Shown in pieces: positions 1 through 18,866 of a stretch of 43,471 nt of DNA (positions are counted from its first letter, which is position 1; every line of letters begins with the position of its first letter). Location of the stretch: positions 1 through 43,471 of the forward strand of contig JAGVGS010000107.1 in the NCBI GenBank assembly GCA_020057015.1, read 5' to 3'. The notes below the pieces were generated by a model. The model did not search any database. It worked only from the letters and a program-made list of their open reading frames with translations, and was not told the DNA's origin. The position numbers and the translations under genes were made by a program. This DNA comes from Candidatus Omnitrophota bacterium. Its GTDB lineage: Bacteria > Omnitrophota > Gorgyraeia > Aquiviventales > Aquiviventaceae.

Positions 1-1
1 C

Positions 2-1963
2 CGCTTCGATGCTGTCGATGCGCTGGAGTTCTACGGAGAGCCTGACGTGACGCGCTTCTACAACATGCAGGTGTATTGGCTCAACTTCGAGGCAGACAGC
101 CCAGCGCGCATGACAACCCGGCAGAATGGCGATGCGCGCGGCTTCGAGGTGCTCAGCTACCCGCACACGCTGCACCTAGAGGGCAACGAGGCGTATTACT
201 CCGAATCGCCCACCGACGCGCATTGGTTCTTTGACCATGAAATCTATGCCGGGGACAGCTACGACATCACGCTGGACGTCGATCAGCTCGCCCACACCGG
301 CGAGGACGCCAAGCTCATCGTGGGACTGCAAGGGCTCTCTACGTGGGGCTACGGCGACAGCGCGCACAAGCGCCAGCACGCCCTCCTGCGCCTCAATGGG
401 GAGCAGGTCGGCGAGCACGAGTGGGACAATGATACGTATGCGCGCCTGGTGCTCTCCGTGCCGGTGAACCAGTTGCAAGAGGGGGCCAATGTCCTCACCG
501 TCGAAGCCACCGATGAGGAGGGGACCCTGGAGCAATTCTTCATGGTCGATGCGGTGCACCTGACCTATCCGCGAAAACTCGTGGCCGGCGAGGAGGGCCT
601 CGCCTTTCGCACCGCGGCGCGTCCGAAGGCGCGCTACACCATCGAAGCCCTCCCCAGCGCCGAGGTCCTCGCCTATGAGCTGCACAGCGATGGCGCCGTG
701 ACCCACATCGTCGATCCGCTCGTGGAGGTGGAGGGCGAGCACTACCGCGTCTCGCTGGCCGATGGCACGCTGCGCGGGGTCTCGTTGCTGGAGCTCAGCA
801 CGGCCGAGGCAGCAGAGCCCGGCTCCGACGCGCTGCTGGAGCCGGCGCGCACGAAGACCCGCCGCCATTATGTGGTGGTGCCGGCCTCAGCGGTAAAGAC
901 CGTGGCGGCCTTAAGCTACCATGCGCCTTCTGAGCTGGAGATCAAGAACCTGCCTGCGTATCTCGTGGTGGCACCTGCGGTCTTCCATGAGACCTTGAAG
1001 CCGTTCGTGGAGCATCGTCAGGGCCTGCTGGTTGATCTCGAAGAGGTCTACAATCTGTTCAGCTATGGCCTGCCAGAGCCCCAGGCGCTGCGCCGCTTCC
1101 TCCTATTGGCCGCCGAGCATGGGGCGAAGATGGCACTGCTGGTGGGCGATGGGCACTTCGACTACCGCAATTTCCAGGGCAGTGATGTGCCGCAATACGT
1201 GCCGGTCGCGCTGGTGCCCAACCGCTTTGGAGAAACAGTCTCAGACGCGTACTACGCCACCCCAGAGGGGGCGCTGGTGCCGAAGCTGGCCCTTGGCCGC
1301 TGGCCGGTGAATTCCGTTGAAGAGTTGCAGGCAGTCATTGAGAAGACCTTGGCGTATGAAGGGCAGGCCAGCCACGGCGCGGTGATGCTGGCCGATGATG
1401 AGCCGGTATTCCGCGCCACCCTCGATCAACTCGCTCAGCAATTACCCTATCCGGATGAAGTCGTGCGCATCAACTATGGCGAGTACGACGCGCTGGGCGC
1501 CAAAGCCAAGCTGCTGGAAGCCGTGAACAGCGGCACCGGTCTGCTGGCGTACGATGGCCATGGCGGGGTGCAATTGTGGTCCTCGGCCCAGCTGCTGACG
1601 GCTGGCGATGTTGACACGATGACCAATGAGGGTCAGTATCCGGTGTTGCTGGCCCTAGGCTGTCTCTCTGGTTATTTTGGGTATCCCGTCGACATGGACA
1701 GCTTGGCTGAGACGCTGCTGCGCGCAGAGGCTAAAGGCGTGGTCGCGGCCTTCTCACCCAGTGGCCTCACCTCCTCGGTGGAGCAGCAGACCTTTGCCAC
1801 CGCCCTCTTGCAAGCGCTCGTGACTGACCACCAATCGCTGGGTACGGCCCTGTTGCACGCGTACCAGGTCGTAGAAGCGCAACTGCCGGCCAGCAAAGCT
1901 CAAGCCCTAATCCAGACGTTCAACCTGCACGGCGATCCTGCCCTGACTCTGCGGCTTCAGTAA
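2..1963 (+). CDS. Peptidase C25 (gingipain)-like cysteine peptidase, 5' end cut by the window edge
   Basis: The frame is open from nt 2, with no stop before the GTG at 47 used by the ORF track. Stop is TAA at 1961-1963. The C-terminal half has His/Cys dyad contexts typical of the caspase-fold C25 family: LLAYDGHGGVQLW and PVLLALGCLSGYF. A LLVGDGHFDYRNF block lies upstream of these. Confidence 0.6.
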   Translation, partial: RFDAVDALEFYGEPDVTRFYNMQVYWLNFEADSPARMTTRQNGDARGFEVLSYPHTLHLEGNEAYYSESPTDAHWFFDHEIYAGDSYDITLDVDQLAHTGEDAKLIVGLQGLSTWGYGDSAHKRQHALLRLNGEQVGEHEWDNDTYARLVLSVPVNQLQEGANVLTVEATDEEGTLEQFFMVDAVHLTYPRKLVAGEEGLAFRTAARPKARYTIEALPSAEVLAYELHSDGAVTHIVDPLVEVEGEHYRVSLADGTLRGVSLLELSTAEAAEPGSDALLEPARTKTRRHYVVVPASAVKTVAALSYHAPSELEIKNLPAYLVVAPAVFHETLKPFVEHRQGLLVDLEEVYNLFSYGLPEPQALRRFLLLAAEHGAKMALLVGDGHFDYRNFQGSDVPQYVPVALVPNRFGETVSDAYYATPEGALVPKLALGRWPVNSVEELQAVIEKTLAYEGQASHGAVMLADDEPVFRATLDQLAQQLPYPDEVVRINYGEYDALGAKAKLLEAVNSGTGLLAYDGHGGVQLWSSAQLLTAGDVDTMTNEGQYPVLLALGCLSGYFGYPVDMDSLAETLLRAEAKGVVAAFSPSGLTSSVEQQTFATALLQALVTDHQSLGTALLHAYQVVEAQLPASKAQALIQTFNLHGDPALTLRLQ

Positions 1964-2029: not shown

Positions 2030-3049
2030 ATGAGGCGCGTGCGCACGGTGTTGCTTGGCCTGGGGGCGAGCCTCTTGCTGCTTGAAGGCGCACTCCGGTG
2101 GTGGTGGCCGCAACCGATGTATGCCACACGGGCGAGTCCGCTTGGTTGGGCGCACATCCCCGGAGCGCAGTTGACGTATGCCCGCCAGGAATTCCGCACC
2201 CGTATTACCTATAACCGCCTTGGGTTGCGTGACCGCGACTACCCACTCCAGAAGCCCGCGCACACGAGGCGCCTGCTGTGTCTGGGCGACTCGTTCACCG
2301 TGGGGATGGAAGTGCCTCACGACCTTGTCTGGACCGAGCAGATAGAGCAGCGGCTCAATACGCCCGGGGCAGGGGCCCCGGCGGTGGAGGTCATCAACGC
2401 CGGGGTGCCGGGCTATGGCTTGGATCAAATGAACCTCTTCCTGCGCCGGGAGGGACGAGCGCTGCAGCCGGATCTGGTCATCGTGCTGCATATGGGGTTC
2501 TTCGGCCGTGAACTGGGCCATCAGCTCGCCCGTTTGGTCGATGGGCAGCTGGAGCTGCGCGAGGCGCAATTTACGCGCACTCAACAGGCGCTGCGTCGCG
2601 TCTTGTCGTGGTGGCGGTTCCATTCCCACGTGGTCGCTGCCCTGTGCGAGTCCACCAAGGGGCTGCCGGGAGTGGCCCGCGTGTACGAGGCGGCACATTT
2701 TTGGGGCCGCACACGCCTGGTAGCACAGCAAGCTCTCGGCGCCTTTGAGGCCGCACCGGCCGCACTCACCCCCGAGCTGGCGCTGACCTATGCGTTGTTG
2801 GATGACCTGCGGCGGCTGGTGGTCGCTGAGGGAGGGCAGTTGCTGTTGGTGCTAGGTGATGAGCAGGCTGCGCCGTTAAAGGCCTATTGCCGCGCGATGG
2901 GAGCGGCCTGCTTGGCGCTGCCCTTTGCGCCGGCACGGTACCCGCTCGATGGCCACTGGAATGCGGAAGGCCACGCGGCCGTGGCCCAGGCGCTCGCACC
3001 CTGGATCCAGGACTGGCTTTCGGTTGACTTCCTGCAACCTGCATCATAG
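2030..3049 (+). CDS. SGNH/GDSL-family hydrolase with N-terminal membrane anchor or signal
   Basis: Hydrophobic N-terminus VLLGLGASLLLL. SGNH blocks are visible: LLCLGDSFTVG (GDS block I), INAGVPGYG (block II Gly), DGHWNAEGH (DxxH block V). Confidence 0.7.
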   Translation: MRRVRTVLLGLGASLLLLEGALRWWWPQPMYATRASPLGWAHIPGAQLTYARQEFRTRITYNRLGLRDRDYPLQKPAHTRRLLCLGDSFTVGMEVPHDLVWTEQIEQRLNTPGAGAPAVEVINAGVPGYGLDQMNLFLRREGRALQPDLVIVLHMGFFGRELGHQLARLVDGQLELREAQFTRTQQALRRVLSWWRFHSHVVAALCESTKGLPGVARVYEAAHFWGRTRLVAQQALGAFEAAPAALTPELALTYALLDDLRRLVVAEGGQLLLVLGDEQAAPLKAYCRAMGAACLALPFAPARYPLDGHWNAEGHAAVAQALAPWIQDWLSVDFLQPAS

Positions 3050-3058
3050 ACTGCCTGC

Positions 3059-3889
3059 ATGTCTGAGCACGACGTCAGCCTCGGTATCGCCGGTCTGACC
3101 TTGCGTTTGCTGGATGACGTTCTCGTGCCTCCCGAATGGCTCACCACCACGTGCGCACCCTTCCAGGTCTCGGCGGCCCCGGCAGCGAACGCGCTGACCG
3201 TGGCCATTCATCGCGACCCGTCTTTTGAGCGCGGCGAGGACCAGTTGCACCTGCACCCTGGGCAGGAGCCTGGGGGCTTTCACATGCGCGGGTATGATTT
3301 TTTGATCGCGCGCCGCCGCTGCGGGTTGCCCTTTGAGGTGGAGGCGCATCCAGACGCCGGTATGGCCGGGGTGCTGCGCTGGGTGACGAGCTTAGCACTG
3401 CTCGAGCAAGGCGGCCTGCTGCTGCACGCAGCTTCCGGTGCCCTGGAAGGTCGTGGGATTATTTGTGCCGGCCCTTCGGGCAGCGGGAAAACCACCCTCT
3501 CTCGCTTGCTGCAATCCCATCTGCAGCTGTTTACCGATGAAACCACCGCAGTGCAGTTCACCGGGGCCATGCCGCTGGCCTATGCCACCCCGTTTGCCGG
3601 AGAGCTGGGTCCGGTCTCGGGTCCGGCTGCTGCTCCGTTAGAGGTGGTGTGCTTTTTAAAGCACGCAAAGGCTCATGCAGTGCGTGCGCTGCACCCTGCC
3701 GAAGCGGTCGAGCGTCTCATGGGCTGCACGTTCTTGCCGCGCGATGGCACCCTGTGGATCACCACAGCGTTGGCGACGGCCGAGCGGCTCGCGCGGGCCG
3801 TACCGTGTCTGGAATTGGCGTTTGCTCCTGAAGCCTCAGTCGTGGAGGTGGTGCGCGATGTCCTCGCTCAACCCGTGTCGCCGGCCTGA
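3059..3889 (+). CDS. HPr kinase/phosphorylase-like P-loop protein (candidate peptide kinase)
   Basis: ATG at 3059. The motif GGLLLHAASGALEGRGIICAGPSGSGKTTLSRLL resembles the HprK C-terminal domain with Walker A. The 3' end overlaps the next gene by 32 nt. Confidence 0.65.
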   Translation: MSEHDVSLGIAGLTLRLLDDVLVPPEWLTTTCAPFQVSAAPAANALTVAIHRDPSFERGEDQLHLHPGQEPGGFHMRGYDFLIARRRCGLPFEVEAHPDAGMAGVLRWVTSLALLEQGGLLLHAASGALEGRGIICAGPSGSGKTTLSRLLQSHLQLFTDETTAVQFTGAMPLAYATPFAGELGPVSGPAAAPLEVVCFLKHAKAHAVRALHPAEAVERLMGCTFLPRDGTLWITTALATAERLARAVPCLELAFAPEASVVEVVRDVLAQPVSPA

Positions 3890-4148
3890 AATTGCGTGGC
3901 GCGTCATCGACGGGGAAGCTGTCGTGGTAAACCCACGGGCCGGCCTCATCTATCCGTTTAATCCGGTCGCCACGCGCTGCTGGGAGCTCGCCGATGGCAC
4001 GCGCACTGCCGAGCAGATCATCATGGCCCTCTATGAAGAGTTCGATGTGCCGCGCGAGCAGCTCGAGCGCGACATGCAGGCATTCCTCGCCACGCTGCAC
4101 GAGAAGGGGCTGCTCATGACCGCTACGGTGATGGCAGCAGCGGCGTGA
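3858..4148 (+). CDS. PqqD-family peptide chaperone (RiPP recognition element)
   Basis: Internal ATG at 3858 within track ORF 3675..4148, preceded by GGAGG at 3844-3848. The 96-aa product MSSLNPCRRPEIAWRVIDGEAVVVNPRAGLIYPFNPVATRCWELADGTRTAEQII..FLATLHEKGLL has PqqD-like size and pattern. The longer track ORF would overlap the kinase gene out of frame. Confidence 0.75.
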   Translation: MSSLNPCRRPEIAWRVIDGEAVVVNPRAGLIYPFNPVATRCWELADGTRTAEQIIMALYEEFDVPREQLERDMQAFLATLHEKGLLMTATVMAAAA

Positions 4149-5437
4149 TGGGCGGCTGTAGCCAGGGAGGATGCGGCAGCGGGTGCGGTGCTGGGGCCTT
4201 GCCCTCAGCGCCCCAAGTGCTTGACCTCACAGATCGCATCGCGCAGTCAGTGCCGTCCAACCCGCTGCGCGTGGAGAGCGCCGAGGCGCGCGAGCATCTG
4301 AACCGGATTTTTTTGAAGGTCGACCAGCGCAAAATCCCCTTTTGGACCCACCTCGATCTCACCTACAAGTGCAACACCGACTGTATCCACTGTTACTGCC
4401 AGCACCTGGACCCAGCCTTCGGCGGCAAGTACGATAAGCAGGATTTAACGACTGCTGAGATTAAGGGGTTGCTCGACCAGTTGGCCGACTACGGCGTGCT
4501 GAATCTCACGCTCTCCGGCGGCGAGCTGCTCGTGCGCAAAGACTTCTTCGAGATCGCGTTTTACGCCAGCCGCGAGAAACACTTTGCCCTCTCGTTTTAC
4601 ACGAACGGCACGCTGGTCAACGAGCGCATTGCCGCGCGCGTTGCGGAGCTTTGCCCGGTGGCGGTGGAGATCAGCCTGCAAGGGGCCACGGCCGAAGTGC
4701 ACGACTACGTGGTGCAGCGGCCCGGGTCGTTTCAGCGGGTCATCGCTGCGGCCCGCATGCTCCGCGCCCGCGGTGTCAATGTCGTGCTCAAAACCACGCT
4801 GATGCAGCCGAACTTTCATCAAGCCGATGAGCTCGTGCGCCTGGCCGGCAGCCTGGGGGCCAGTGCCTACCGCACCAGCCTCGATCTGACCCCTAAGAAC
4901 GATGGGGATACCAGCGTGCAGCGATTCAACCTCACCGACGAGCAATTTGCAGACTACATCGCGCGCGACTACCCTGAACCCTTTCAGTATCGCGAGCCCA
5001 TCTCGCTTGAGGAGGCCCGCCAGCGATCGACCTGTGGCACTGGCACCGTGGCCTGCTATATCTCGCCCTATGGCGATGTCTACCCGTGCATCCAACTACT
5101 GATTTCGATGGGCAATATCCGCGAGCGCTCGTTCAAGGAGATTTGGGAAGCCCCCTCTGAGCTGCGCCGTAAGCTCGAGGCGATTCAAACCTACGGTGAT
5201 CTGCCGGATTGCCAAACCTGCGAATACGTGCAGCTGTGTCAGCGCTGCCACGGGCTGGCCTATCTGGAAACCGGGGATCTGACCAAGTGCTATAAGATGG
5301 TGCTGCGTTCAGCCAAGCTGAACACCGAGGTGAATGCCCGCATGGCGCCCAAGGTCGAATCCAGCGTGGTGCCGGTCGCGGCCGGGCCGATGCTCATCGA
5401 GCGGCAGTCGCCGGCGTTCACGAGTTTCAGTCGTTAA
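4145..5437 (+). CDS. Radical SAM/SPASM-domain peptide maturase
   Basis: Start is GTG 4145 or ATG 4148, overlapping the PqqD stop (GTGATG). CX3CX2C cluster is CNTDCIHC. SPASM-type C-terminal cysteines are CGTGTVACYISPYGDVYPC (CX12GX4C) and CQTCEYVQLCQRC (CX2CX5CX2C). Confidence 0.9.
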   Translation: MMGGCSQGGCGSGCGAGALPSAPQVLDLTDRIAQSVPSNPLRVESAEAREHLNRIFLKVDQRKIPFWTHLDLTYKCNTDCIHCYCQHLDPAFGGKYDKQDLTTAEIKGLLDQLADYGVLNLTLSGGELLVRKDFFEIAFYASREKHFALSFYTNGTLVNERIAARVAELCPVAVEISLQGATAEVHDYVVQRPGSFQRVIAAARMLRARGVNVVLKTTLMQPNFHQADELVRLAGSLGASAYRTSLDLTPKNDGDTSVQRFNLTDEQFADYIARDYPEPFQYREPISLEEARQRSTCGTGTVACYISPYGDVYPCIQLLISMGNIRERSFKEIWEAPSELRRKLEAIQTYGDLPDCQTCEYVQLCQRCHGLAYLETGDLTKCYKMVLRSAKLNTEVNARMAPKVESSVVPVAAGPMLIERQSPAFTSFSR

Positions 5438-5460
5438 CCACCACAGAGGAGGGATGCATC

Positions 5461-5625
5461 ATGGCACCACCAGCACGCAAGCGGGCCTATGAGCCGCCAA
5501 AGTTGCACAGCGTGCAGGCCATTGAGGCCGGCTCGGCGGTATGTTGCAAGACCAATAGCGGAGCGTGCTCAGCCGCTGCCAAGTCCGGCGGCGGTAAGGG
5601 CCAGCGCTCCAAGGACACCTCCTGA
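5461..5625 (+). CDS. Candidate RiPP precursor peptide, 54 aa (absent from the ORF track)
   Basis: Hand translation gives MAPPARKRAYEPPKLHSVQAIEAGSAVCCKTNSGACSAAAKSGGGKGQRSKDTS. ATG is at 5461 and TGA at 5623-5625. A strong RBS GAGGAGGG at 5446-5453 lies 7 nt upstream. The ORF sits 24 nt after the rSAM stop and 5 nt before the next gene. Confidence 0.6.
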   Translation: MAPPARKRAYEPPKLHSVQAIEAGSAVCCKTNSGACSAAAKSGGGKGQRSKDTS

Positions 5626-5630
5626 CGCTT

Positions 5631-7037
5631 GTGCGCGCCTCGGGGAAGACATTTCAGGCGACAGCGCCTCTGGATCGGACAGCAGAGGCGCTGTTTGTTT
5701 GCTCCCTATCGCAAGAGGGTCTGGTGTGGATCACTGCGCGGGGCAACAGCATGGCGCCCACGTGGACCGATGGGGCGCTGCTGGGTGTCGTCGCGGCGCG
5801 CGCCGAGACCTTGCGGCCGGGCGATGGCATCGTGTTTCACAATGGGGAGCAGGTCGTGGCCCACCGCTTGCTGCGCCGGCGCTATGAGGAGGGCTGGTGG
5901 TGGCTGCAGCCCAAAGCCGATGCAGGGTGCACGCCCGAGCCGTGGCAACCGGAGACCGCGCTCATCGGCCGTATTGTGGCTATCGAGGCCCGCGGTCGGC
6001 AGCAGCGCTGGGACCAGGGATGGGGCCTGCTGCGGCAGCGCGCGGCCGGGTGGTGGCAGCAGGCGCATGTGGCAGGGCATGGGGCATGGCAGCAGCTGAC
6101 CAGGCAGGGCAGCCGGATCATCTCTCCCTGGCCCTGGCCGGTGCCCGAGACTGACCCGCGCCTGACGTGGGGCCGCAATATGTTCTTGCGCGAGCGATTG
6201 GCCGCGTGTGTGCGGGTGCTTGCTCCTGCCGGCATCGAATCGATGCTGCTCAAGGGCCAGGCATTGATCTTAACCGGCGTGATGGACCCTGCCGAGCGCC
6301 CGATGGCTGACGTTGACCTGTTGGTCAAACAGGAGCAGGCCGCGAGTGTGCTGCATCTGCTGCAAGCCGCCGGCTACCGCCTGCGCGGGCCGACTGATGC
6401 GCTGCGCGCCTCGCTGGATGACCAGCTGCCCTTTGAGGATCCCTCGGGCGTGGTGTTTGACGTGCATTGGGGCGTGGTGACCGGCGGCTGGCGGTTTCGC
6501 GACGTGATCCGCCTGGATTATGAGGGACTGTGGGCGCGCAGCCAGCGCTGGGATCTTGACGGCGTACCCGTGCGCGTCATGGCTCCGGTGGACCAGCTGT
6601 TGCACTTATGCTCGCATCTCATCCTGAGCGGGGCGACCGGGCACGTGTGGTGGCAAGACCTGCGCCGGTTTCTAGAGCACCAGGGCAAGGCGATCGATTG
6701 GAGCGACTTGCTGATCCAGGCGCGCCAGGCTCGCTTGCGCACGATCGTCTGGCTGTCGTTGGACACGCTCTGGCAGCGCTGGCAAGTGCCGGTGCCGCCT
6801 CAGATCGTGCGTGCGCTGCGTCCGGCTCCGTGGCGCCGGTGGCTGCTGCGCAGCCTGCTGCCAGCGGATCTCTCCACCGCGGCGGATGAGTCCCGCTGGC
6901 AGCGCCATACGCGTGAGCTGCTGCTGATGGACCGCCCGATCGACCGCCTGCGCTTGCTGTGGCGCTGGAGCCATCCGCCGGCGGCCTGGCATGCGTATAA
7001 AGCAGGGACAGTCACTAATTTCTGTTGTGCCGACTAG
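5631..7037 (+). CDS. Fusion protein: N-terminal S24/S26-like peptidase domain plus C-terminal uncharacterised nucleotidyltransferase (NTP_transf_5/PF14907-like)
   Basis: GTG start at 5631. The N-terminus ITARGNSMAPTWTDGALLGV..PGDGIVFHNGEQVVAHRLLRR matches the LexA/signal-peptidase-type GxSM..GD..v pattern. The C-terminal half has LLKGQALIL..ERPMADVDLLV..AAGYRL..VFDVHWGVV, typical of PF14907. The last 12 codons run into the palindromic repeat. Confidence 0.65.
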   Translation: MRASGKTFQATAPLDRTAEALFVCSLSQEGLVWITARGNSMAPTWTDGALLGVVAARAETLRPGDGIVFHNGEQVVAHRLLRRRYEEGWWWLQPKADAGCTPEPWQPETALIGRIVAIEARGRQQRWDQGWGLLRQRAAGWWQQAHVAGHGAWQQLTRQGSRIISPWPWPVPETDPRLTWGRNMFLRERLAACVRVLAPAGIESMLLKGQALILTGVMDPAERPMADVDLLVKQEQAASVLHLLQAAGYRLRGPTDALRASLDDQLPFEDPSGVVFDVHWGVVTGGWRFRDVIRLDYEGLWARSQRWDLDGVPVRVMAPVDQLLHLCSHLILSGATGHVWWQDLRRFLEHQGKAIDWSDLLIQARQARLRTIVWLSLDTLWQRWQVPVPPQIVRALRPAPWRRWLLRSLLPADLSTAADESRWQRHTRELLLMDRPIDRLRLLWRWSHPPAAWHAYKAGTVTNFCCAD

Positions 7038-7063: not shown

Positions 7064-8137
7064 TTGGGTTCAAGGTCCTAGTGCAACACTTGGTATCCTG
7101 GTCCATCCAGGAACAAGGAGTTGCACATGTCAAGGTCCCGGCACTTGGACTTGCGTGAACGCGAGGAGTTCAGCCGCATGTTAGCCGCGAATCAGAGTGT
7201 GCGCATGATTGCCCGCTGCCTGCGTCGCGCTCCCAGCAGCCTGACCCGGGAGCTGCAGCGGCATCGAGCCTCGCGGGTGACGTATCGGGCGGTCTTCGCA
7301 CAACACCGGGCGCAGCGCTGGGCCACGCAACCTCGGAAGCCCCGCACGCTCGCGGTGGAGCCCCACCTGCGGGCCGTCGTCTTCACGCTCCTCGCGCAGC
7401 ACTGGTCCCCCGAACAGATTGCGCGCGGGCTGCCGCAGCGGTATCCTGACGACCCGACCATGCGCATCTCTCACGAAGCCATCTACACGTACCTGTACGT
7501 CTTGCCCCGGGGCGCCTTGAAGAAGGAGCTCATTCGAGTCCTGCGCCACCGGCATCACGTCCGCCGTCCCCGTGGCAAGGCGCGTCTCACGTCCCGACCG
7601 ATCCAGGACGCCATCAGCATTGAGGAGCGCCCGGCCGCGGTGGCGGATCGCACCCTGCCCGGCCACTGGGAAGGCGATCTGCTCATGGGCCACGGCAACG
7701 CCTCGGCCCTGGGCACCCTGGTGGAGCGCACGACCCGGTTCACGCTCTTGGTCCCCTTGCGCGGCAAGGATGCTCCCAGCGTCCGGCAGGCGTTCGCCCG
7801 CGAGCTGCGCACGCTGCCACAGCAGTTGCGCCAGTCGCTGACCTACGACCAGGGCCAGGAGATGGCCCAACATCGGCTCTTCACCGCCCAGACGCAGATG
7901 CGCGTCTACTTCGCGCATCCGCACTGCCCGTGGGAGCGGGGCACGAACGAGAACACCAACGGGCTCTTGCGGCAGTTCTTCCCCAAAGGCACTCGCTTTA
8001 CCACCATCAGCCGCCGACAGATCAAACACATTCAGGCGCTCCTCAACGACCGGCCACGCAAGGTCCTGACCTGGCACAGTCCAGCGAAGGTCTTCAAGGA
8101 CGTCTTGGAACGTGTTGCACTAGAACCTTGAATCCAC
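7064..8137 (+). mobile_element. IS30-family insertion sequence (~1.07 kb)
   Basis: Terminal inverted repeats are TTGGGTTCAAGGTCCTAGTGCAACAC (7064-7089) and the reverse complement of 8112-8137, GTGGATTCAAGGTTCTAGTGCAACAC, matching at 23/26 positions. A single transposase ORF has its stop inside the right IR. Apparent flanking duplication is ACTGT (7059-7063 and 8138-8142) or a shorter subset of it. Confidence 0.9.
7127..8131 (+). CDS. IS30-family DDE transposase
   Basis: ATG at 7127 is preceded by AAGGAG at 7115-7120; the track start TTG at 7121 is less likely. It has an N-terminal HTH region and the IS30 hallmarks LPGHWEGDLL and YFAHPHCPWERGTNENTNGLLRQFFPKGT. Confidence 0.95.
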   Translation: MSRSRHLDLREREEFSRMLAANQSVRMIARCLRRAPSSLTRELQRHRASRVTYRAVFAQHRAQRWATQPRKPRTLAVEPHLRAVVFTLLAQHWSPEQIARGLPQRYPDDPTMRISHEAIYTYLYVLPRGALKKELIRVLRHRHHVRRPRGKARLTSRPIQDAISIEERPAAVADRTLPGHWEGDLLMGHGNASALGTLVERTTRFTLLVPLRGKDAPSVRQAFARELRTLPQQLRQSLTYDQGQEMAQHRLFTAQTQMRVYFAHPHCPWERGTNENTNGLLRQFFPKGTRFTTISRRQIKHIQALLNDRPRKVLTWHSPAKVFKDVLERVALEP

Positions 8138-8154: not shown

Positions 8155-8184
8155 TTGACGAGACGTGCAGCCGTTAGGTATACT
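8155..8184 (+). promoter_or_regulatory. Sigma70-like promoter
   Basis: TTGACG (8155-8160), an 18-nt spacer, then TATACT (8179-8184). The same -35/N18/-10 TAnnCT layout recurs upstream of the other two GEMM-I-like leaders. Confidence 0.45.
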
Positions 8185-8204
8185 TTATCTGTAATCTGTA
8201 GCTC

Positions 8205-8311
8205 TCGAGAAAGCCACACCCGTCGTAAGGCGGGGCCGGAAAGCCACGGGTCCTTGACGGATCGCCGGGTTGCCGAAGGGCGGAACCTCAGGATCGCCGG
8301 GTTGCCGAAGG
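8205..8311 (+). promoter_or_regulatory. GEMM-I-like (cyclic-dinucleotide riboswitch-like) leader, divergent 5' half
   Basis: The leader reads GAGAAAGCC, ACA, CCCGUC-GUAA-GGCGGG (a GNRA-capped hairpin), GCCGGAAAGCC, ACGGGUCCUUGACGGAUCGCCGGGUUGCC. The 3' half closely parallels the clear riboswitch at 19651-19692. The GGCAAAC and GACGCAAAGCC junctions are altered. The 21-nt 3' strand GGATCGCCGGGTTGCCGAAGG is present twice, at 8259-8279 and 8291-8311. Confidence 0.5.
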
Positions 8312-8375
8312 AGATAGCGGAGCCTTTCGGAATCCGGCGTTTGTGTTTATACTAGCAGCACATCACAGTGTGTAT

Positions 8376-9182
8376 ATGAGGGTTCATCATCAGATGCTCC
8401 GACAGCAGAAAGTATTCGCCTATCGCATCCGCGGGCGATCGGGATTGAGCCTTGTGGAAATAATGGTCTCGCTCTTCGTAATCCTGGTTACGGCGGAGGC
8501 AGGATATTTGAGCGTCATCCAGTCACTCAGGTATATGGACGTCAATCGCGACGTCCGGCACGCCTACATTGATCTTCAAGCCGTCCTCGAACGCATTCAG
8601 GCCACTCCCCCAACCCAGATTTTTGAAGTCTTCCAGCATAACCAATTGGTGAATGGGACGCTGATTGGAGGCATCACCTTGACCGGGGAGCAGCTTACAG
8701 TGACCTACCTGCCCGGGCAGGTCATGAATGTCGTGAACGCCGGCAACAATACGATCCGATTTACCTATGGTGCGGGAAATGGAACGTACAACGTGAGTGC
8801 TGTGTCGCTGGAGCTCAGAGACGGTAATATGCTCGACAGCAATATTGTCGCCACCTCCACTCCCGTAGCAGGGGCGGGTGGTGCGGTCAATAATGCAGGG
8901 CCAGGTCAGACCTTTACCGTGGGCTTTGCGGCGATACCGGCCGCTGCGCGGAGCGTGTGGTTGAGCGTCACGCTTCAGAATGTCGATGGGGCGGGTGAAG
9001 TGGACGTGTTTGTCAACAATCGCGGACCGTATGCTCCAGGCCCAGCATTCTACGTGGCGGGGGCGTGGACCGGAATGATCTATCTACCCGATGTAACGCC
9101 GCTACATGTCGAGGTCATGAATGCGTGGCAGACCCGAGGGCATGCCATGGGGCGAACGCTCAACGGAATCAAGCTCTGGTAG
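8376..9182 (+). CDS. Prepilin-type (type IV pilin/pseudopilin-like) protein
   Basis: Class III signal RGRSG/LSLVEIMVSLFVILV, with Gly at -1 and Glu at +5. The start is uncertain: GTG 8343, ATG 8376 or ATG 8394. The remainder is a beta-rich domain without recognisable motifs. Confidence 0.7.
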   Translation: MRVHHQMLRQQKVFAYRIRGRSGLSLVEIMVSLFVILVTAEAGYLSVIQSLRYMDVNRDVRHAYIDLQAVLERIQATPPTQIFEVFQHNQLVNGTLIGGITLTGEQLTVTYLPGQVMNVVNAGNNTIRFTYGAGNGTYNVSAVSLELRDGNMLDSNIVATSTPVAGAGGAVNNAGPGQTFTVGFAAIPAAARSVWLSVTLQNVDGAGEVDVFVNNRGPYAPGPAFYVAGAWTGMIYLPDVTPLHVEVMNAWQTRGHAMGRTLNGIKLW

Positions 9183-9193
9183 CGGGGTAAAAC

Positions 9194-10222
9194 ATGCTAA
9201 CAAGACGATCGGACAAGGGTTTCACGCTCATTGAAGTGTTGGCGGCGGGCGGCCTTTTTGCCGTCGTGGCGGGTGCCGCAGGCCTGATGGTGATGGGGGC
9301 CACCGCGACGTGGACCAGGACAGCCGCCGTCCTCGAGCAGGATGGCAAGGCAACCCTGGCGATGGAAGGCATTCGCACCGCCCTGCGAGGCAGTCAACCG
9401 GCGGGTATCGATACCCCCAACCCAGGATTTGACCGTATTCGGTTCATCAGGGGTACTCAGTTTGACCCGATTTCAGGGCAGGTGGCGCGGAATGACGTGC
9501 GGCAGATCAGGGTGGTGGATATTAATGCTGCTGGGGTGGGGCGACTGGTGCTCCAAAATCAGGATGAGACAACAACGTTCCGGACGCTGACACGGGATGT
9601 CACTCTCTTTACGGTGGTGGACTCGGCAATCAATAACACGCTCGCCCCGAATGAGGTGGATGTCACAATCGGCCTGGCAGTCCGAGGGTCTGGAAGGCCC
9701 TCCCTGCAGACCTCGGTGATTTCGACGCGAGGGCTTGGGAACGCCCAGTTAATAGAAGCCGAGAGCGGCGCGCCAGCCGGCGGTGCCTGGACCCCAAACA
9801 ACATCGACTTTACAGCACCAGCATCTTCAATCCCGACGGATGCAAGCGGAAACTTGTTCATTGAAGTAACCCCTTCAGGAAACACCCAGCGGACTCTAAC
9901 ATATTCCTTCAACATTGCTGTAGCTGGCGAGTATCGCATGTCGTGGAGGATCCGGTGGAACTGGAAGGTCGCATGGAATATATGGGTACATCCATATATA
10001 CGGGATTCTTACACGTGGAGAATCGATGGAGGTGTCGACAGGGCTATGAGTCATGCGTTCTTTCCTGATTGGCGCTGGGTCGAAGTCGATACAATACCTT
10101 TGACCGCCGGCTTGCATACATTGGTGATCACGTGGCCAAAGGATCCTTTAAAACCGCGGAATTATGAGGCTTTGGATGCGATCTTTTTCACTACCGAGTC
10201 AGGGGACCCGCCAGCATTGTAA
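9194..10222 (+). CDS. Prepilin-type N-terminal cleavage/methylation domain protein with large C-terminal domain
   Basis: Canonical motif SDKGFTLIEVLAAGGLFAVV. The Trp-rich C-terminal ~130 aa begins AQLIEAESGAP, loosely reminiscent of CBM6/35-type modules (low confidence). Confidence 0.85.
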   Translation: MLTRRSDKGFTLIEVLAAGGLFAVVAGAAGLMVMGATATWTRTAAVLEQDGKATLAMEGIRTALRGSQPAGIDTPNPGFDRIRFIRGTQFDPISGQVARNDVRQIRVVDINAAGVGRLVLQNQDETTTFRTLTRDVTLFTVVDSAINNTLAPNEVDVTIGLAVRGSGRPSLQTSVISTRGLGNAQLIEAESGAPAGGAWTPNNIDFTAPASSIPTDASGNLFIEVTPSGNTQRTLTYSFNIAVAGEYRMSWRIRWNWKVAWNIWVHPYIRDSYTWRIDGGVDRAMSHAFFPDWRWVEVDTIPLTAGLHTLVITWPKDPLKPRNYEALDAIFFTTESGDPPAL

Positions 10223-10239
10223 GGAAGGAGGCGAACGCG

Positions 10240-11433
10240 ATGTTCATGCTCTTATGCCGAAGGCGAAGCGAATCGGCCAGGCGCGGATCAGCGCTGCTGG
10301 GGACCTTGCTGTTGATGTCCACTTTTGTGCTGATTACCGGCTCCACGATTACCATGGCGCTCAATCACGCTGTGCTCACGCAACACTTTGTGGGCATGGC
10401 ACAGGCGTTTTGGAACGCGGAAGCCGGCGCTGCCGAAGGCGTGAGCTGGCTGCTGCGCGCCAACCCGCTGCCAGGGGGAACCGTGATCCTGGGGCAAGGT
10501 TCGAATCCTCCATTTCTTGCCCCAGGTCCTGCTAACGCTGCTAACGAGGTGCAGGTAACTTCCCAGGCTGGCACCGTACAAGGCACCTTCCGCGTAACGG
10601 TAACGCGTGGGGTGGGGTTCGTCTACACCATTGCGAGTAGGGGGACCAGTGCTGCTGAAGGCATCCAACGTACCGTAAGTCGGACTGTTCGGATCACCGC
10701 GCCAATCGTGTGGGAGAGGGAGTTTGATCTCACTATTGGAACTCCAAATACTATTCCGGCACAGGGAACCACGCCGGACTACACGTATTGGGGATGGAAG
10801 TTTGGTCAAGGCGTTTCTCCCACGTTGTACTGGTGGAACGGCGAGTTTGTTGGAGCGTTTGCGGCGATTTCGAGGGCGCTGTTTATCCGTTTGAATGACC
10901 CCATCGCGGGCGGAGACTTTAGCGTTGACCTTTGGGCCGCGTATACGCCTTGTAGACCCGGAGAAGGTAATGGTGATCAGTCACAGTGCGGTACTCCTGC
11001 GGGGAACCCCGGGCACCATACGGAGCGCATGAGCGTATACATCAGCGGCATCCAATATGACATCATGGATCCAGAGCGCGGCCAACAGGAAGGTATGATG
11101 TGGTACAAAAATATGGGCAGTTGCGCCGGAACCATTGATTGCGGTGAGGGAAATCTTGCTGTTCCCGGTGCTCAAGCGGTCCCAATCTACCTGGATCAAC
11201 GGAACAACACGACCACTTTGAATGCAGCCCTTGGCGATAATCTCGACGGAGTCGCGGGCGCGGATGATATCCGAGGCAACATCGTCATTGTGCCGTGGGA
11301 TGCCTGGAATCCACTGGCTTGGAACAACCCATTCAACTTCACAGCAGGCAGCGAGAGCATCAACAATGTGCGTGTGCGGAAAGTCGATAAAACAGGGCGC
11401 ACCGTAGAGCTCCTCGGCTGGAATGCTGAGTAA
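10240..11433 (+). CDS. PilX-like minor pilin/pseudopilin-like protein
   Basis: RBS AAGGAAGGAGG lies upstream of ATG 10240. The N-terminus RRGSALLGTLLLMSTFVLITGSTITMAL resembles the PilX N-terminal domain. The C-terminal region is large, with 6 Cys. Confidence 0.65.
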   Translation: MFMLLCRRRSESARRGSALLGTLLLMSTFVLITGSTITMALNHAVLTQHFVGMAQAFWNAEAGAAEGVSWLLRANPLPGGTVILGQGSNPPFLAPGPANAANEVQVTSQAGTVQGTFRVTVTRGVGFVYTIASRGTSAAEGIQRTVSRTVRITAPIVWEREFDLTIGTPNTIPAQGTTPDYTYWGWKFGQGVSPTLYWWNGEFVGAFAAISRALFIRLNDPIAGGDFSVDLWAAYTPCRPGEGNGDQSQCGTPAGNPGHHTERMSVYISGIQYDIMDPERGQQEGMMWYKNMGSCAGTIDCGEGNLAVPGAQAVPIYLDQRNNTTTLNAALGDNLDGVAGADDIRGNIVIVPWDAWNPLAWNNPFNFTAGSESINNVRVRKVDKTGRTVELLGWNAE

Positions 11434-11571: not shown

Positions 11572-13098
11572 ATGTGCTGCCTGAAACGCTTGCCGACTCT
11601 ATTCTTGGTAGCAAGCCCTCTATCGTTCCTCTTAGCGCCTTCGCTGGCATGGGCCGCTGCGGCCGAAGGCAGTGAGACCCTCAAGTGGCTGGTGATCGGC
11701 CTCGTGGTCGTGGCCACCCTCGTCATCGGCCAATTGATTTACGGGTTCTCCCAAAAGGATAAGGCGATCAAGGCTAAGGCCGAGACGCCTGAGGCCCCCG
11801 CCGCGCCGACCCCGGCCATCTACCACCCGAAAGCCGTGGTGCCCTCCATTCTTGATCAGCTGGCGCAAGCCGGTGTCAACCCCAAGCAGCGCGAGCAGCT
11901 GGCCCAGTCGCTTTCGACCATTGTGACCAAGACCGTCGACGCGCAGGTGGATGCCGTCAAGCAAGAGGTCAAGAAGCACTACGACCAAGTCTTGGAGGAG
12001 AAGCAGTGGGCCGAGCGCGCGCTGCAGCGCAAGTATCAAGAGGCGCTGATTGACCGCAACCAGACCGCGCAGGTGCTCGAGAGTATTGCCGAAGGCCTAG
12101 TGGTGGTGAACAACAAGGGCGAAGTGGTGATGATGAATCCGGCCGCCGAGAAACTGCTGGCGGTGCGGCAGGCCGAGCGCGTGGGCAAGCCGCTGGTCGA
12201 ATCGCTCGATGACGATCAGATCATCTCGCTGGTGCAGGGCTCGACCGAGGGCCGCGAGATCGTGGTCAATACGAAGCAAGAGAGCACCAAGCGCGTGCTG
12301 CGCGCGAGCAACGCCGTGGTCACCGATCAGGATGGCCGGGCCGTGGGCATGGTGGCGGTGCTGCATGACGTGACGAAGCAGAAGGAAGTGGAGGATCTCA
12401 AATCCGAGTTCGTCTCCAAGGTCAGCCACGAGCTGCGCACCCCGCTCATGGCGATCCAGTACGCGCTCTCGCTGCTGGATGATCAGATGGCCGGCAGCAT
12501 GTCTGAGGACGCGCAGGCCTTCGTGTCCCTGACCCGTCGTAATCTGGAGCGGCTCAACTTGCTGGTGAGCGACCTGCTCGATCTTTCCAAGCTCGAGGCC
12601 AAGAAGATGGAGCTGCGGCTGGAGCTGATCGCGCTCGGCCCGATTCTGCAGACCGTGTGCGATACGATGGACGCGTGGGCCAAGAGCAAGCAGATCACGC
12701 TGGTGCGGCGCGTGGTGGAAGAGGTGCCCATGATGCGCCTGGATGCGTCGCGCCTGATTCAGGTGCTCACCAACCTGGTGGGCAACGCCATCAAATTCAC
12801 GCCGGAAAAGGGCAAGATCACCGTCGAGGGCAAGCTGGCGGCGGATCAGCAGCACGTGGAAGTGAGCGTCATCGACACCGGGGTGGGGATTGCCCCCGAG
12901 GATCTGCCCAAACTGTTCAACAAGTTTCAGCAAGTGGGCGAGCGCACCGCCAGCGACATGAGCGGCACGGGGTTAGGGCTCGTGATCGCCAAGGAGATCG
13001 TCGAGCTGCACCAGGGCCGGATCTGGGTGGAGAGCGATGGCAAGCGGGGCGCGCGGTTTGTGTTTACCCTGCCGCTGCACGCGGCGGCCGCGGCGTGA
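11572..13098 (+). CDS. Membrane-bound PAS-domain sensor histidine kinase
   Basis: ATG 11572 is chosen because the track start GTG 11533 lies inside the repeat. It has a signal/TM segment, a coiled-coil and a PAS-like region (ESIAEGLVVVNNKGEVVMMNPAAEKLL). H-box is FVSKVSHELRTPL, N-box LVGNAIKFT, G-boxes DTGVGI and GTGLGLVIAKEIVELHQGRIWVES. Confidence 0.9.
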   Translation: MCCLKRLPTLFLVASPLSFLLAPSLAWAAAAEGSETLKWLVIGLVVVATLVIGQLIYGFSQKDKAIKAKAETPEAPAAPTPAIYHPKAVVPSILDQLAQAGVNPKQREQLAQSLSTIVTKTVDAQVDAVKQEVKKHYDQVLEEKQWAERALQRKYQEALIDRNQTAQVLESIAEGLVVVNNKGEVVMMNPAAEKLLAVRQAERVGKPLVESLDDDQIISLVQGSTEGREIVVNTKQESTKRVLRASNAVVTDQDGRAVGMVAVLHDVTKQKEVEDLKSEFVSKVSHELRTPLMAIQYALSLLDDQMAGSMSEDAQAFVSLTRRNLERLNLLVSDLLDLSKLEAKKMELRLELIALGPILQTVCDTMDAWAKSKQITLVRRVVEEVPMMRLDASRLIQVLTNLVGNAIKFTPEKGKITVEGKLAADQQHVEVSVIDTGVGIAPEDLPKLFNKFQQVGERTASDMSGTGLGLVIAKEIVELHQGRIWVESDGKRGARFVFTLPLHAAAAA

Positions 13099-14135: not shown

Positions 14136-14137
14136 GG

Positions 14138-18756: not shown

Positions 18757-18866
18757 CTGATAAGGTAAACGCACGTTCTGGAATTCCTCGTACGACCCAT
18801 TCCGTTTTACCCTCGCGCGAAATCCTGTGCACATGTGTAGATTTTTTCCACCGCAGCGAGGCTGCC

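What the first reader, a model, noticed from the sequence alone, without database searches (positions are those of the whole stretch)
5461..5625. Untracked 54-aa ORF with lasso-like YxxPxL leader motif, CC..C core and C-terminal Ser
The hand-translated peptide is MAPPARKRAYEPPKLHSVQAIEAGSAVCCKTNSGACSAAAKSGGGKGQRSKDTS. Residues Y10-E-P-P13-K-L15 fit the YxxPxL motif used by PqqD-type RREs of lasso systems. Three Cys (C28, C29, C36) sit in a Ser/Ala/Gly-rich core suitable for rSAM thioether chemistry. The peptide ends in Ser, the residue targeted by HprK-like peptide kinases. There is no Asp/Glu at core positions 7-9, which argues against lasso macrolactam formation. The ORF was missed by the track because it is under 60 aa.
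Basis: partly seen in the sequence, partly recalled or inferred. Interest (0 to 1): 0.75.

Follow-up and report, generated by a model that had tools for sequence, protein, structure and literature searches.

The report
Precursor peptide of radical-SAM RiPP cassette
The 54-codon ORF is a real, conserved gene that most likely encodes the precursor peptide of an uncharacterised modified-peptide pathway in Omnitrophota bacteria, which adds a radical-SAM enzyme to the kinase, chaperone and signal-peptidase machinery recently described for linear phosphorylated peptides.

Summary
The ORF at 5461-5625 (+) exists exactly as described and is a real gene. It has a GGAGG Shine-Dalgarno sequence 8 nt upstream. 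It sits 23 nt after a radical-SAM/SPASM gene. It recurs in that position in every related locus, with dN/dS of 0.1-0.3.

An exhaustive profile search found 16 further clusters of 51-59 aa peptides. In all 29 family members I collected, these features are invariant: Y-x-x-P, CC[K/R], a third Cys (six residues later in 28 of 29) and the C-terminal Ser.

The surrounding cassette contains:
- an HprK/PEPCK-fold kinase (Pfam ScmC);
- a discrete PqqD-type RRE closest to lasso B1 proteins and LppB;
- an rSAM/SPASM enzyme;
- an archaeal-type signal peptidase fused to NTP_transf_5;
- a C25 peptidase.

This is the gene set of the "LPP" family (Popov et al. 2026) plus an rSAM enzyme and the C25 peptidase. 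It is not a lasso system, and it does not reach the cut-offs of the SynChlorMet equivalog models.

No Pfam or NCBIfam model matches the peptide. I found no paper describing this combination.

A wider superfamily with the same leader, and mostly a terminal Ser, spans at least 12 phyla.

The chemistry (thioethers, phosphorylation of the terminal Ser) remains inferred.

The parts
1..1963 (+). Peptidase C25 (gingipain/PorU-like) gene, cut at its 5' end by the contig edge. It is an accessory member of the cassette.
   Evidence: Pfam Peptidase_C25 E 4e-63. The frame is open from base 2. Homologues of 1150-1852 aa lie next to the cassette in L005, L006, L008, L015 and seven more distant loci, but not in all.
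2030..3049 (+). Weak GDSL/SGNH-like ORF, probably not a core part.
   Evidence: Lipase_GDSL_2 scores 30 bits, below its cut-off. No homologue was found in any related locus.
3059..3889 (+). ScmC-family P-loop kinase with the HprK/PEPCK fold; the predicted peptide kinase.
   Evidence: PF27840 in the precomputed table for the identical protein P0141. AlphaFold model pLDDT 92.9. Foldseek best hits are ATP-PEPCK (E 1e-7) and HprK/P (E 3e-5). H123, G138-x-S-G-x-G-K144-T-T and D160-E161 are conserved in 43-44 of 44 homologues.
3858..4148 (+). Discrete PqqD-type RiPP recognition element (96 aa). It overlaps the end of the kinase gene.
   Evidence: PqqD E 1.8e-19. The profile hits TbiB1 at 1.2e-12, LppB (9x8z_B) at 1e-7, TfuB1, PbaB1 and PqqD. 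D72 and F76 are invariant, with the same D-x-x-x-F spacing as LppB D70/F74, which hold the leader Tyr and Pro (PMC13381572).
4145..5437 (+). Radical-SAM/SPASM peptide maturase.
   Evidence: Radical_SAM 7e-26 and SPASM 2e-11. No NCBIfam equivalog cut-off is reached. Invariant C76-x3-C80-x2-C83 plus SPASM cysteines C297, C315, C356, C359, C365 and C368. The best solved relative is SkfB at 1.5e-16, then CteB.
5448..5452 (+). Shine-Dalgarno GGAGG of the precursor gene.
   Evidence: Read from the sequence. GGAGG lies at the same distance upstream in all homologous loci.
5461..5529 (+). Predicted leader (aa 1-23): a basic N-terminus, then Y10-E-P-P13-K-L15 (5488-5505), then I21-E22-A23.
   Evidence: Y and P are invariant in all family members. 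The hydrophobic-E-[A/V/T] motif parallels LPP F-3/E-2/T-1, which precedes the SpI cleavage site. The boundary is inferred; cleavage after S25 (an AxA-type site) is the alternative.
5530..5625 (+). Predicted core (aa 24-54) plus stop codon: C28 and C29 (5542-5547), K30, C36 (5566-5568), a Gly/Lys-rich tail, and terminal S54 (5620-5622).
   Evidence: CC[K/R] and the third Cys are present in all 29 members; the CC-x6-C spacing holds in 28 of 29. The terminal Ser is in 29 of 29.
5661..5701 (+). GC-rich hairpin (arms 5661-5672 and 5683-5694) followed by TTTGTTTG; a probable partial terminator or attenuator after the precursor gene.
   Evidence: Fold of 5626-5712 gives -36.6 kcal/mol with a 12-bp stem. 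Hairpins followed by T-tracts, analogous in structure but not in sequence, occur in L001, L002 and L004.
5631..7037 (+). [quoted passage not shown] The true start is probably GTG 5724.
   Evidence: NTP_transf_5 1e-33, Peptidase_S24 4e-7, sigpep_I_arch 5e-6. G-x-S-M-x-P, H-R and K-[A/G]-D are invariant in 16 homologues. Homology to relatives begins at residue 32 in two of the three closest contigs and at residue 7 in the third. The two domains are separate genes in the other Omnitrophota loci.

Best explanation
The ORF encodes the precursor peptide of an RRE-dependent RiPP pathway. Shown here: it is a real gene under purifying selection, always placed directly after the rSAM/SPASM gene, and it belongs to a family with an invariant Y-x-x-P leader motif, CC[K/R] plus a third Cys, and a terminal Ser.

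Inferred mechanism:
1. The discrete PqqD protein binds the Y10-x-x-P13-x-L15 leader, as lasso B1 proteins and LppB do, and presents the peptide to the enzymes.
2. The rSAM/SPASM enzyme modifies the Cys-containing core. The most likely product is one to three Cys-derived thioether cross-links (sacti- or ranthipeptide-type).
3. The ScmC/HprK-fold kinase phosphorylates a Ser. The best candidate is the invariant C-terminal Ser54, as in paeninodin-type lasso peptides, and the NTP_transf_5 domain then decorates the phosphate.
4. The archaeal-type signal-peptidase domain removes the leader after the I-E-A motif (about residue 23-25), as LppS does in LPP biosynthesis.
5. The C25 peptidase is an accessory of unknown role, perhaps trimming at the basic tail or a sortase-like transfer.

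My confidence that it is a genuine RiPP precursor of this cassette is about 0.93. My confidence that all the inferred chemical steps are right is about 0.4-0.5.
For: Gene reality:
- The SD sequence and the position after the rSAM gene are conserved.
- dN/dS is 0.10-0.33, with differences concentrated at third codon positions.
- The ORF is present even where no gene was called (L004).

Family:
- 16 further clusters came from an exhaustive profile search.
- Every locus whose rSAM is at least 43% identical carries a family peptide directly 3' of the rSAM gene.

Cassette:
- ScmC, PqqD, rSAM, S24 and NTP_transf_5 co-occur in all sufficiently long family loci, and in 63 of 80 wider loci at least ScmC is present.
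- PqqD is fused to the rSAM in some homologues (P0055, P0057, P0063), which links the RRE to the rSAM step.

RRE: closest solved relatives are TbiB1 and LppB, and the D-x-x-x-F pair is conserved (PMC13381572 sections 8-9).

Kinase: PEPCK/HprK fold and conserved His, Lys, Asp-Glu. Lasso kinases share a His-Lys-Asp-Asp motif and phosphorylate the conserved C-terminal Ser of the precursor (PMC9266682).

Peptidase: invariant Ser/His/Asp triad, matching LppS S29/H68/D93, which cleaves its leader in an RRE-dependent way (PMC13381572 section 11).

Terminal Ser: 29 of 29 in the family, and 31 of 36 candidate precursors in ScmC-positive loci of the wider superfamily. The precursor candidates in L085 and L053, where no ScmC hit was found, end in Phe and Leu.

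rSAM: closest solved relatives are the thioether synthases SkfB and CteB.
Against: - No chemistry was observed.
- The rSAM scores highest against AhbD and MftC models in NCBIfam, not against sactisynthases, and reaches no curated cut-off. Thioether formation is therefore only the most common outcome for Cys-rich cores, not a specific prediction.
- In LPP, the only characterised system with the same peptidase, RRE, kinase and NTase set, the kinase targets core Ser3 and not the C-terminus. The equivalent position is not Ser in this family.
- No exporter gene is present in the window.
- The C25 peptidase is absent from several family loci.
- The leader/core boundary is inferred from a 3-residue motif.
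- All relatives are metagenome-assembled, so expression is unproven.
Confidence: 0.7

Rival explanations
1. It is an LPP-like linear phosphopeptide. Phosphorylation is the class-defining step. The cysteines serve as disulfide or metal ligands, or the rSAM makes a modification other than a thioether (for example epimerisation, or a C-C or C-O cross-link).
For: The peptidase, RRE, kinase and NTase quartet is identical to the LPP core set. The rSAM reaches no sactisynthase or ranthipeptide cut-off, and AhbD/MftC models score highest.
Against: The three Cys and their spacing are conserved across the family (third-Cys spacing in 28 of 29). The rSAM gene is always adjacent to the peptide gene. The closest solved rSAM relatives are thioether synthases.
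Confidence: 0.2
2. It is the precursor of a small peptide-derived cofactor (PQQ- or mycofactocin-like). Only a few residues, such as the C-terminal ones, would survive processing.
For: PqqD plus an rSAM/SPASM enzyme plus peptidases is also the grammar of the PQQ and mycofactocin pathways. The MftC model aligns over the full length at 156 bits. The C-terminal residue is invariant.
Against: The MftC, PqqE and PqqD equivalog cut-offs are not met. No PqqB/C-like or MftD/E/F-like genes are present. Conservation covers the whole core (CC[K/R], the third Cys, G-K-G-x-R), not only the end. The kinase and NTase point to a decorated peptide.
Confidence: 0.06
3. The kinase phosphorylates core Ser/Thr for elimination and lanthionine-type Cys addition, a lanthipeptide-like route.
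For: The core is rich in Thr and Ser next to the Cys residues.
Against: No lyase or cyclase domain is in the cassette. The kinase fold is HprK/PEPCK, not the protein-kinase fold of class III/IV lanthipeptide synthetases. The rSAM would be left unexplained.
Confidence: 0.03
4. It is a lasso peptide precursor, or a chance ORF.
For: The leader motif is the lasso-type [Y/W]xxPx[L/V/I] (PMC13381572 introduction). ORFs of this size are frequent in GC-rich DNA.
Against: No Asn-synthetase-like cyclase or B2 protease appears in the window cassette or in any related locus. There is no Asp/Glu at core positions 7-9. Chance is excluded by conservation, synteny and dN/dS.
Confidence: 0.01

Closest known systems
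Linear polyphosphorylated peptides (LPP), Popov et al., Nat Commun 2026 (PMC13381572)
   Same: It shares the archaeal-type signal-peptidase-I leader peptidase with a Ser/His/Asp triad, the discrete PqqD-type RRE, the HprK-like kinase and the NTP transferase. The leader also has YxxPx[V/L] and a hydrophobic-Glu-small motif before the cleavage site. One relative (L008) lies among polysaccharide export genes, as LPP clusters do.
   Different: This cassette adds an rSAM/SPASM enzyme and often a C25 peptidase. The core has three invariant Cys. The LPP phospho-acceptor Ser3 is not conserved, whereas the C-terminal Ser is. No MsbA-like pump is present. It occurs in Omnitrophota and many other phyla, whereas LPP was described as restricted to Bacillota. 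In the window the peptidase and NTase are fused.
Paeninodin-type phosphorylated lasso peptides (PadeK/ThcoK, PsmK/PsmN)
   Same: It shares the YxxPxL-type leader, the discrete B1-like RRE, an HprK-like kinase whose substrate is the precursor's conserved C-terminal Ser, and a nucleotidyltransferase-like enzyme that decorates the phosphate (PMC9266682).
   Different: There is no B2 protease, no macrolactam synthetase and no acidic residue at core positions 7-9. The leader peptidase is a serine signal peptidase, and an rSAM enzyme is present.
SynChlorMet (SCM) cassette, NCBIfam TIGR04248-TIGR04251, and the HprK-related kinase A/B and GeoRSP systems
   Same: It shares the grammar of a ScmC-like P-loop protein, a PqqD homologue and rSAM/SPASM enzyme(s). 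The window kinase belongs to the Pfam ScmC family PF27840.
   Different: None of the equivalog cut-offs is reached: ScmC 24 versus 125, ScmD 37 versus 100, ScmE 108 and ScmF 75 versus 400. There is one rSAM instead of two. From my memory of the TIGRFAM description, no precursor had been identified for SCM. Here the precursor is identified.
Sactipeptides and ranthipeptides (SkfB, AlbA, CteB/SCIFF, PapB)
   Same: It shares an rSAM/SPASM maturase with auxiliary-cluster cysteines acting on a short Cys-containing precursor through an RRE. SkfB and CteB are the closest solved structures.
   Different: The RRE is discrete rather than an N-terminal domain. The extra kinase, NTase, signal peptidase and C25 peptidase are absent from known sacti- and ranthipeptide clusters. 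No curated maturase model is matched above its cut-off, and the SCIFF and other precursor models do not hit the peptide.

Membership tests
Lasso peptide | Leader with the [Y/W]xxPx[L/V/I] motif, recognised by a PqqD-type RRE | tested here: met
   Y10-E-P-P13-K-L15 is present, and Y and P are invariant in the family. The PqqD protein is closest to TbiB1.
Lasso peptide | Macrolactam synthetase (Asn-synthetase-like C) and B2 cysteine protease in the cluster | tested here: not met
   Neither appears among the window cassette proteins or in the Pfam tables of related loci.
Lasso peptide | Asp/Glu at core positions 7-9 for the isopeptide ring | tested here: not met
   Between E22 and D52 there is no acidic residue.
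LPP (Popov et al. 2026) | Archaeal-type SpI leader peptidase with a Ser/His/Asp triad | tested here: met
   Peptidase_S24 4e-7 and sigpep_I_arch 5e-6, the latter below its cut-off. G-x-S-M-x-P, H-R and K-[A/G]-D are invariant in 16 homologues.
LPP (Popov et al. 2026) | Discrete RRE, HprK-like kinase and NTP transferase | tested here: met
   PqqD 1.8e-19, with LppB (9x8z_B) hit at 1e-7. The kinase has the HprK/PEPCK fold. NTP_transf_5 scores 1e-33. Direct sequence comparison with LppK, LppN and LppS was not possible because those sequences are not held.
LPP (Popov et al. 2026) | Precursor motif YxxPxVLxHQxIxFETxxS with the phospho-acceptor Ser at core position 3 | tested here: inconclusive
   YxxPxL and I-E-A (compare F-E-T) are present, but the Ser three residues after the motif is not conserved (A, T, Q or V in most members).
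LPP (Popov et al. 2026) | MsbA-like exporter, and no other primary modifying enzyme | tested here: not met
   No ABC transporter is in the window. An rSAM/SPASM gene is always adjacent to the peptide gene.
SynChlorMet cassette (NCBIfam equivalogs) | ScmC, ScmD, ScmE and ScmF above the curated cut-offs, with two rSAM/SPASM proteins | tested here: not met
   Scores are 24.4/125, 36.9/100, 108.4/400 and 74.5/400, and there is a single rSAM. The more distant loci tested also fall below cut-off.
Pfam ScmC (PF27840) | Match to the family model | tested here: met
   The precomputed Pfam assignment for the identical protein P0141 and for 59 of its 60 listed homologues is PF27840. The local Pfam copy lacks this model.
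Sactipeptide / ranthipeptide | rSAM/SPASM maturase with CxxxCxxC and auxiliary-cluster cysteines | tested here: met
   Radical_SAM plus SPASM. Invariant C76/C80/C83 and C297, C315, C356, C359, C365 and C368.
Sactipeptide / ranthipeptide | Cys-to-carbon thioether cross-links in the product | not testable with these tools
   This needs mass spectrometry or NMR of the modified peptide.
Sactipeptide / ranthipeptide | Match to a curated maturase or precursor model (AlbA, SkfB, StsB, PapB, SCIFF) | tested here: not met
   All maturase models score far below their cut-offs. No precursor model hits the peptide even at E <= 10.
PQQ / mycofactocin | PqqE or MftC and PqqD equivalogs, with a cofactor-type precursor (E..Y or C-terminal GVY) | tested here: not met
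   MftC 155.7/265, PqqE 91/381, PqqD 35/46. The peptide has neither motif.

The most novel reading that the evidence does not exclude
The family defines a new RiPP class found well beyond Bacillota. An LPP-type machinery (RRE, HprK-fold kinase, NTP transferase, signal-peptidase-type leader peptidase) is coupled to rSAM cross-linking of a CC[K/R]-x5-C core. The phosphorylated and decorated C-terminal Ser, together with the sortase-like C25 peptidase, would serve to attach the peptide to a cell-surface polymer in Omnitrophota and relatives.
Probability: 0.12. Interest if true: 0.85.

Novelty: new variant of a known kind. Interest (0 to 1): 0.6.

Why it matters
This finding gives a concrete, conserved substrate for an enzyme cassette that databases know only as enzyme families (ScmC-like, PqqD, rSAM/SPASM, NTP_transf_5).

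It shows that the peptidase, RRE, kinase and NTase machinery just described in Bacillota (LPP, 2026) is widespread in uncultivated phyla and is there joined to radical-SAM chemistry.

It offers a clean, testable set of invariant residues (Y10, P13, C28, C29, C36, S54) for reconstitution experiments.

If the chemistry is as inferred, the product would combine thioether cross-links with C-terminal (poly)phosphorylation. No known RiPP is reported to have that combination.

Tried and rejected
- Exact look-ups of the window rSAM and of the peptide in the contig index found nothing.
- A genome scan with the single S24/NTP_transf_5 protein found no relatives. The rSAM alignment was used instead.
- Pfam and NCBIfam scans of the peptide and of six distant leader-homologous peptides, up to E = 10, gave no meaningful family.
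- A sequence search of the kinase against the PDB found only P-loop matches. The fold search was needed.
- The terminator scan missed the post-precursor hairpin because its loop is 10 nt. It was found by folding.
- Literature searches for 'SynChlorMet', for HprK+SPASM+RiPP, for PF14907, and for signal peptidase + radical SAM + HPr kinase found nothing relevant. Two RRE and rSAM survey papers do not mention kinases. Haft and Basu 2011 is not held.
- P0133, a 199-aa repeat protein, matches only the leader stretch 'KRAYEGPKLH' and was rejected as spurious.
- I considered a functional link between the cassette and the downstream pseudopilin genes. I rejected it because the similarly sized gene after the cassette in L004 is not homologous, and L004-L006 lack the riboswitch.
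- The GDSL-like ORF is not conserved in any relative.
- I recall a resemblance between 'CCKT'/'ACKT' and the SCIFF motif 'ACKTSC'. This is from memory only, and no HMM supports it.

Full report
**Observation.** GGAGG lies at 5448-5452, 8 nt before the ATG. The ORF begins 23 nt after the stop codon of a radical-SAM gene. In this 63% GC window a 54-aa ORF is not remarkable on its own. Of 199 ORFs of 40-80 aa, this is the only one that combines a [Y/W]xxPx[LVIAF] motif near the N-terminus, at least 3 Cys and a terminal Ser. The identical product is already held by NCBI and JGI as 'hypothetical protein' (P0001), so the ORF is not unannotated in public records.

**Is it a gene?** Three metagenome peptides of 69-80% identity (P0002-P0004) lie on short contigs with the same order: rSAM C-terminus, peptide, S24/NTP_transf_5. 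Four longer contigs add further members. One of these (L004) carries the ORF although no gene was called there. All have GGAGG at the same distance upstream. Pairwise dN/dS among seven members is 0.10-0.33, with synonymous differences at 50-97% of synonymous sites and roughly twice as many third-position changes as first- or second-position changes. This is a protein-coding gene under purifying selection.

**Family.** A profile of four members was searched against 1.84 billion representative proteins. It returned 16 further true clusters, all 51-59 aa, plus one spurious repeat protein. With the peptides recovered from genomic loci, 29 distinct members are in hand. All 29 have these features:
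- a basic N-terminus;
- Y-x-x-P-x-[L/I/V/A];
- a hydrophobic-Glu-[Ala/Val/Thr] motif about nine residues later (two members differ slightly);
- CC[K/R];
- a third Cys, six residues after the pair in 28 of 29;
- a Gly/Lys/Arg-rich tail;
- a C-terminal Ser.

No Pfam or NCBIfam model matches the peptide, even at E = 10.

**Surroundings.** All neighbours are on the + strand:
- 1-1963: a Peptidase_C25 gene cut by the contig end.
- 3059-3889: a P-loop protein. It is in Pfam ScmC (PF27840) by the precomputed table. It gives only weak hits to HprK-related kinase A/B and ScmC in NCBIfam.
- 3858-4148: a 96-aa PqqD protein.
- 4145-5437: an rSAM/SPASM protein.
- 5461-5625: the peptide.
- 5631 (or 5724) to 7037: a fusion of a Peptidase_S24 domain with NTP_transf_5.
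- 7121-8131: an IS30 transposase, directly after the cassette.

**The kinase.** A model built from 44 homologues has pLDDT 92.9. Its best structural matches are ATP-dependent PEPCK (E about 1e-7) and HprK/P (E about 3e-5). H123, the P-loop G138-x-S-G-x-G-K144-T-T and D160-E161 are conserved in 43-44 of 44 sequences. This parallels the His-Lys-Asp-Asp set reported for lasso-peptide kinases (PMC9266682).

**The RRE.** The PqqD profile hits the lasso RRE TbiB1 (1.2e-12), LppB (9x8z_B, 1e-7), TfuB1, PbaB1 and PqqD itself. D72 and F76 are invariant. They have the same spacing as LppB D70 and F74, which hold the leader Tyr and Pro (PMC13381572 section 8).

**The peptidase.** The S24 domain has invariant G-x-S-M-x-P, H-R and K-[A/G]-D in 16 homologues. 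That is the Ser/His/Asp triad of archaeal-type signal peptidases.

**The rSAM.** It has the CxxxCxxC motif and six invariant SPASM cysteines. It reaches no curated equivalog cut-off. Its closest solved relatives are the thioether synthases SkfB (1.5e-16) and CteB.

**Breadth.** A genome scan with an rSAM alignment returned 80 loci.
- The nine loci with rSAM identity of at least 43% are Candidatus Omnitrophota MAGs, plus one bin labelled Brocadiaceae. The window is therefore very probably from Omnitrophota.
- Each of those nine has a family peptide directly 3' of the rSAM gene.
- In these loci the S24 and NTP_transf_5 proteins are separate genes, and the gene order differs.
- The C25 peptidase is present in some family loci but not all.
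- Among the other loci, 63 of 80 in total contain a ScmC-like gene, usually with PqqD, S24 and NTP_transf_5.
- Those loci carry labels from at least 12 phyla: Desulfobacterota, Aminicenantes, Elusimicrobia, Chloroflexota, Planctomycetota, Verrucomicrobiota, Clostridia, Nitrospinae, Zixibacteria, Actinomycetota, Acidobacteriota, Kiritimatiellia and Lentisphaerota.
- Next to their rSAM genes lie peptides with a homologous leader (K-x-Y-x-K-P-x-[I/V/L]...E-E-A-V-L-x-x-C-K) and different Cys cores.
- Of 36 such candidates in ScmC-positive loci, 31 end in Ser (mostly G-S) and 2 end in Thr. The candidates in L085 and L053, where no ScmC hit was found, end in Phe and Leu.
- None of the tested enzymes reaches the SynChlorMet equivalog cut-offs.

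**Closest characterised system.** Popov et al. (Nat Commun 2026, PMC13381572) described 'linear polyphosphorylated peptides' (LPP) in Bacillota.
- The conserved gene set is an archaeal-type SpI peptidase (LppS), a discrete RRE (LppB), an HprK-like kinase (LppK), an NTP transferase (LppN) and an MsbA-like pump.
- The precursors carry the motif YxxPxVLxHQxIxFETxxS.
- LppK polyphosphorylates core Ser3.
- LppS (S29/H68/D93) cleaves after F-E-T, and only when LppB presents the leader.

The window cassette contains the same four enzyme types. Its peptide has YxxPxL and, at the corresponding place, I-E-A (F-E-A, M-E-V or L-E-A in relatives). By this homology I infer that the S24 domain is the leader peptidase and cuts after about A23. 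Cleavage after S25 is an AxA-type alternative.

The window cassette differs from LPP in several ways:
- the LPP Ser3 position is not conserved here, whereas the C-terminal Ser is;
- an rSAM/SPASM enzyme and often a C25 peptidase are added;
- no exporter is present in the window;
- the hosts are not Bacillota, although LPP was described as restricted to that phylum.

**Mechanism.**
- Shown: the gene is real, the family and its invariant residues exist, the cassette composition is conserved, and the kinase, RRE and peptidase have the stated folds and catalytic residues.
- Inferred from established knowledge of lasso B1/LppB recognition: PqqD binds Y10/P13/L15.
- Inferred from rSAM/SPASM precedents (SkfB, AlbA, CteB): the enzyme cross-links the three Cys to acceptor carbons.
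- Inferred from paeninodin-type kinases, which phosphorylate the conserved C-terminal Ser of their precursors (PMC9266682), and from the near-universal terminal Ser wherever ScmC is present: Ser54 is the phospho-acceptor, and NTP_transf_5 decorates the phosphate, as PsmN does.
- Fusions of PqqD to the rSAM in some homologues support the view that the RRE also serves the rSAM step.
- The role of the C25 peptidase is unknown.

**Transcript structure.** A 12-bp GC-rich hairpin followed by TTTGTTTG lies 36 nt after the stop codon (5661-5701). Analogous hairpins followed by T-tracts, different in sequence, follow the peptide gene in L001, L002 and L004. This fits the partial terminators that raise precursor transcript levels in many RiPP operons (my own knowledge). 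It also implies that the S24 fusion gene starts at about GTG 5724. Homology to relatives begins there, at residue 32, in two of the three closest contigs; in the third it begins at residue 7.

**Rivals.**
- A purely LPP-like phosphopeptide, with a non-thioether rSAM step, cannot be excluded (about 0.2).
- A cofactor precursor is unlikely (about 0.06), as is a lanthionine-type route (about 0.03).
- A lasso peptide or a chance ORF is effectively excluded.

**Novelty.** I found no model for the peptide and no paper on this gene combination. The library does not hold most subscription journals, so this absence of evidence is limited. I rate the finding as a new variant of a known kind: an LPP/paeninodin-type tailoring machinery joined to rSAM/SPASM chemistry on a new precursor family. 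Interest is 0.6.

Noticed in passing
window 8204-8278, 19619-19696, 40204-40283 (+): There are three c-di-GMP-I class riboswitch aptamers in one 43-kb window: two of the GGC variant RF03167 (71 and 69 bits) and one RF01051 (62 bits). The first follows a sigma-70-like promoter (8155-8184) and precedes a pseudopilin-like operon (8343-11433).
   Followed up: partly
window 21740-38956 (+): A single giant ORF of 5738 aa with Kre9_KNH Ig-like repeats and Reelin-subrepeat matches. It is probably a surface adhesin.
   Followed up: partly
window 7121-8131 (+): An IS30-family transposase (293 bits) is inserted directly 3' of the RiPP cassette. In relative L006 the cassette is instead followed at once by HD-domain and AAA_22 genes, which in the window lie at 13080-15762.
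   Followed up: partly
window 5661-5701 (+): A GC-rich 12-bp hairpin plus T-tract lies just after the precursor stop codon, inside the longest possible reading frame of the next gene. Analogous hairpins occur in L001, L002 and L004. It suggests transcript attenuation and a later start (GTG 5724) for the S24/NTP_transf_5 gene.
   Followed up: partly
L019-L088 (genome loci): A wide superfamily of ScmC + PqqD + S24 + NTP_transf_5 + rSAM cassettes spans at least 12 phyla. Their unannotated precursors follow the form K-x-Y-x-K-P-x-[IVL]...EEAVLxxCK...GS, and no curated model matches them.
   Followed up: partly
L052 1-6200: An Omnitrophota locus has four rSAM/SPASM genes, a PqqD and a ScmC-like gene in a row. 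A leader-homologous ORF ending in Ser lies at the contig start (3-266).
   Followed up: no
L008 1-17074: In a 646-kb Omnitrophota contig the cassette (with an 1852-aa C25 peptidase) sits among polysaccharide export and assembly genes (Poly_export, Wzz/GNVR, Wzy_C, Polysacc_synt). This echoes the capsule-locus context reported for LPP and paeninodin clusters.
   Followed up: no
window 18738-19538 and 19916-21217 (+): Two IS200-like Y1 transposase-domain ORFs flank the second riboswitch. The second has a long C-terminal extension of unknown function.
   Followed up: no
window 4145-4220 (+): The longest reading of the rSAM gene starts with a Gly/Cys-rich stretch (MMGGCSQGGCGSGCG). JGI calls a start 24 codons later (P0005, 406 aa). 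The real start is unresolved.
   Followed up: no
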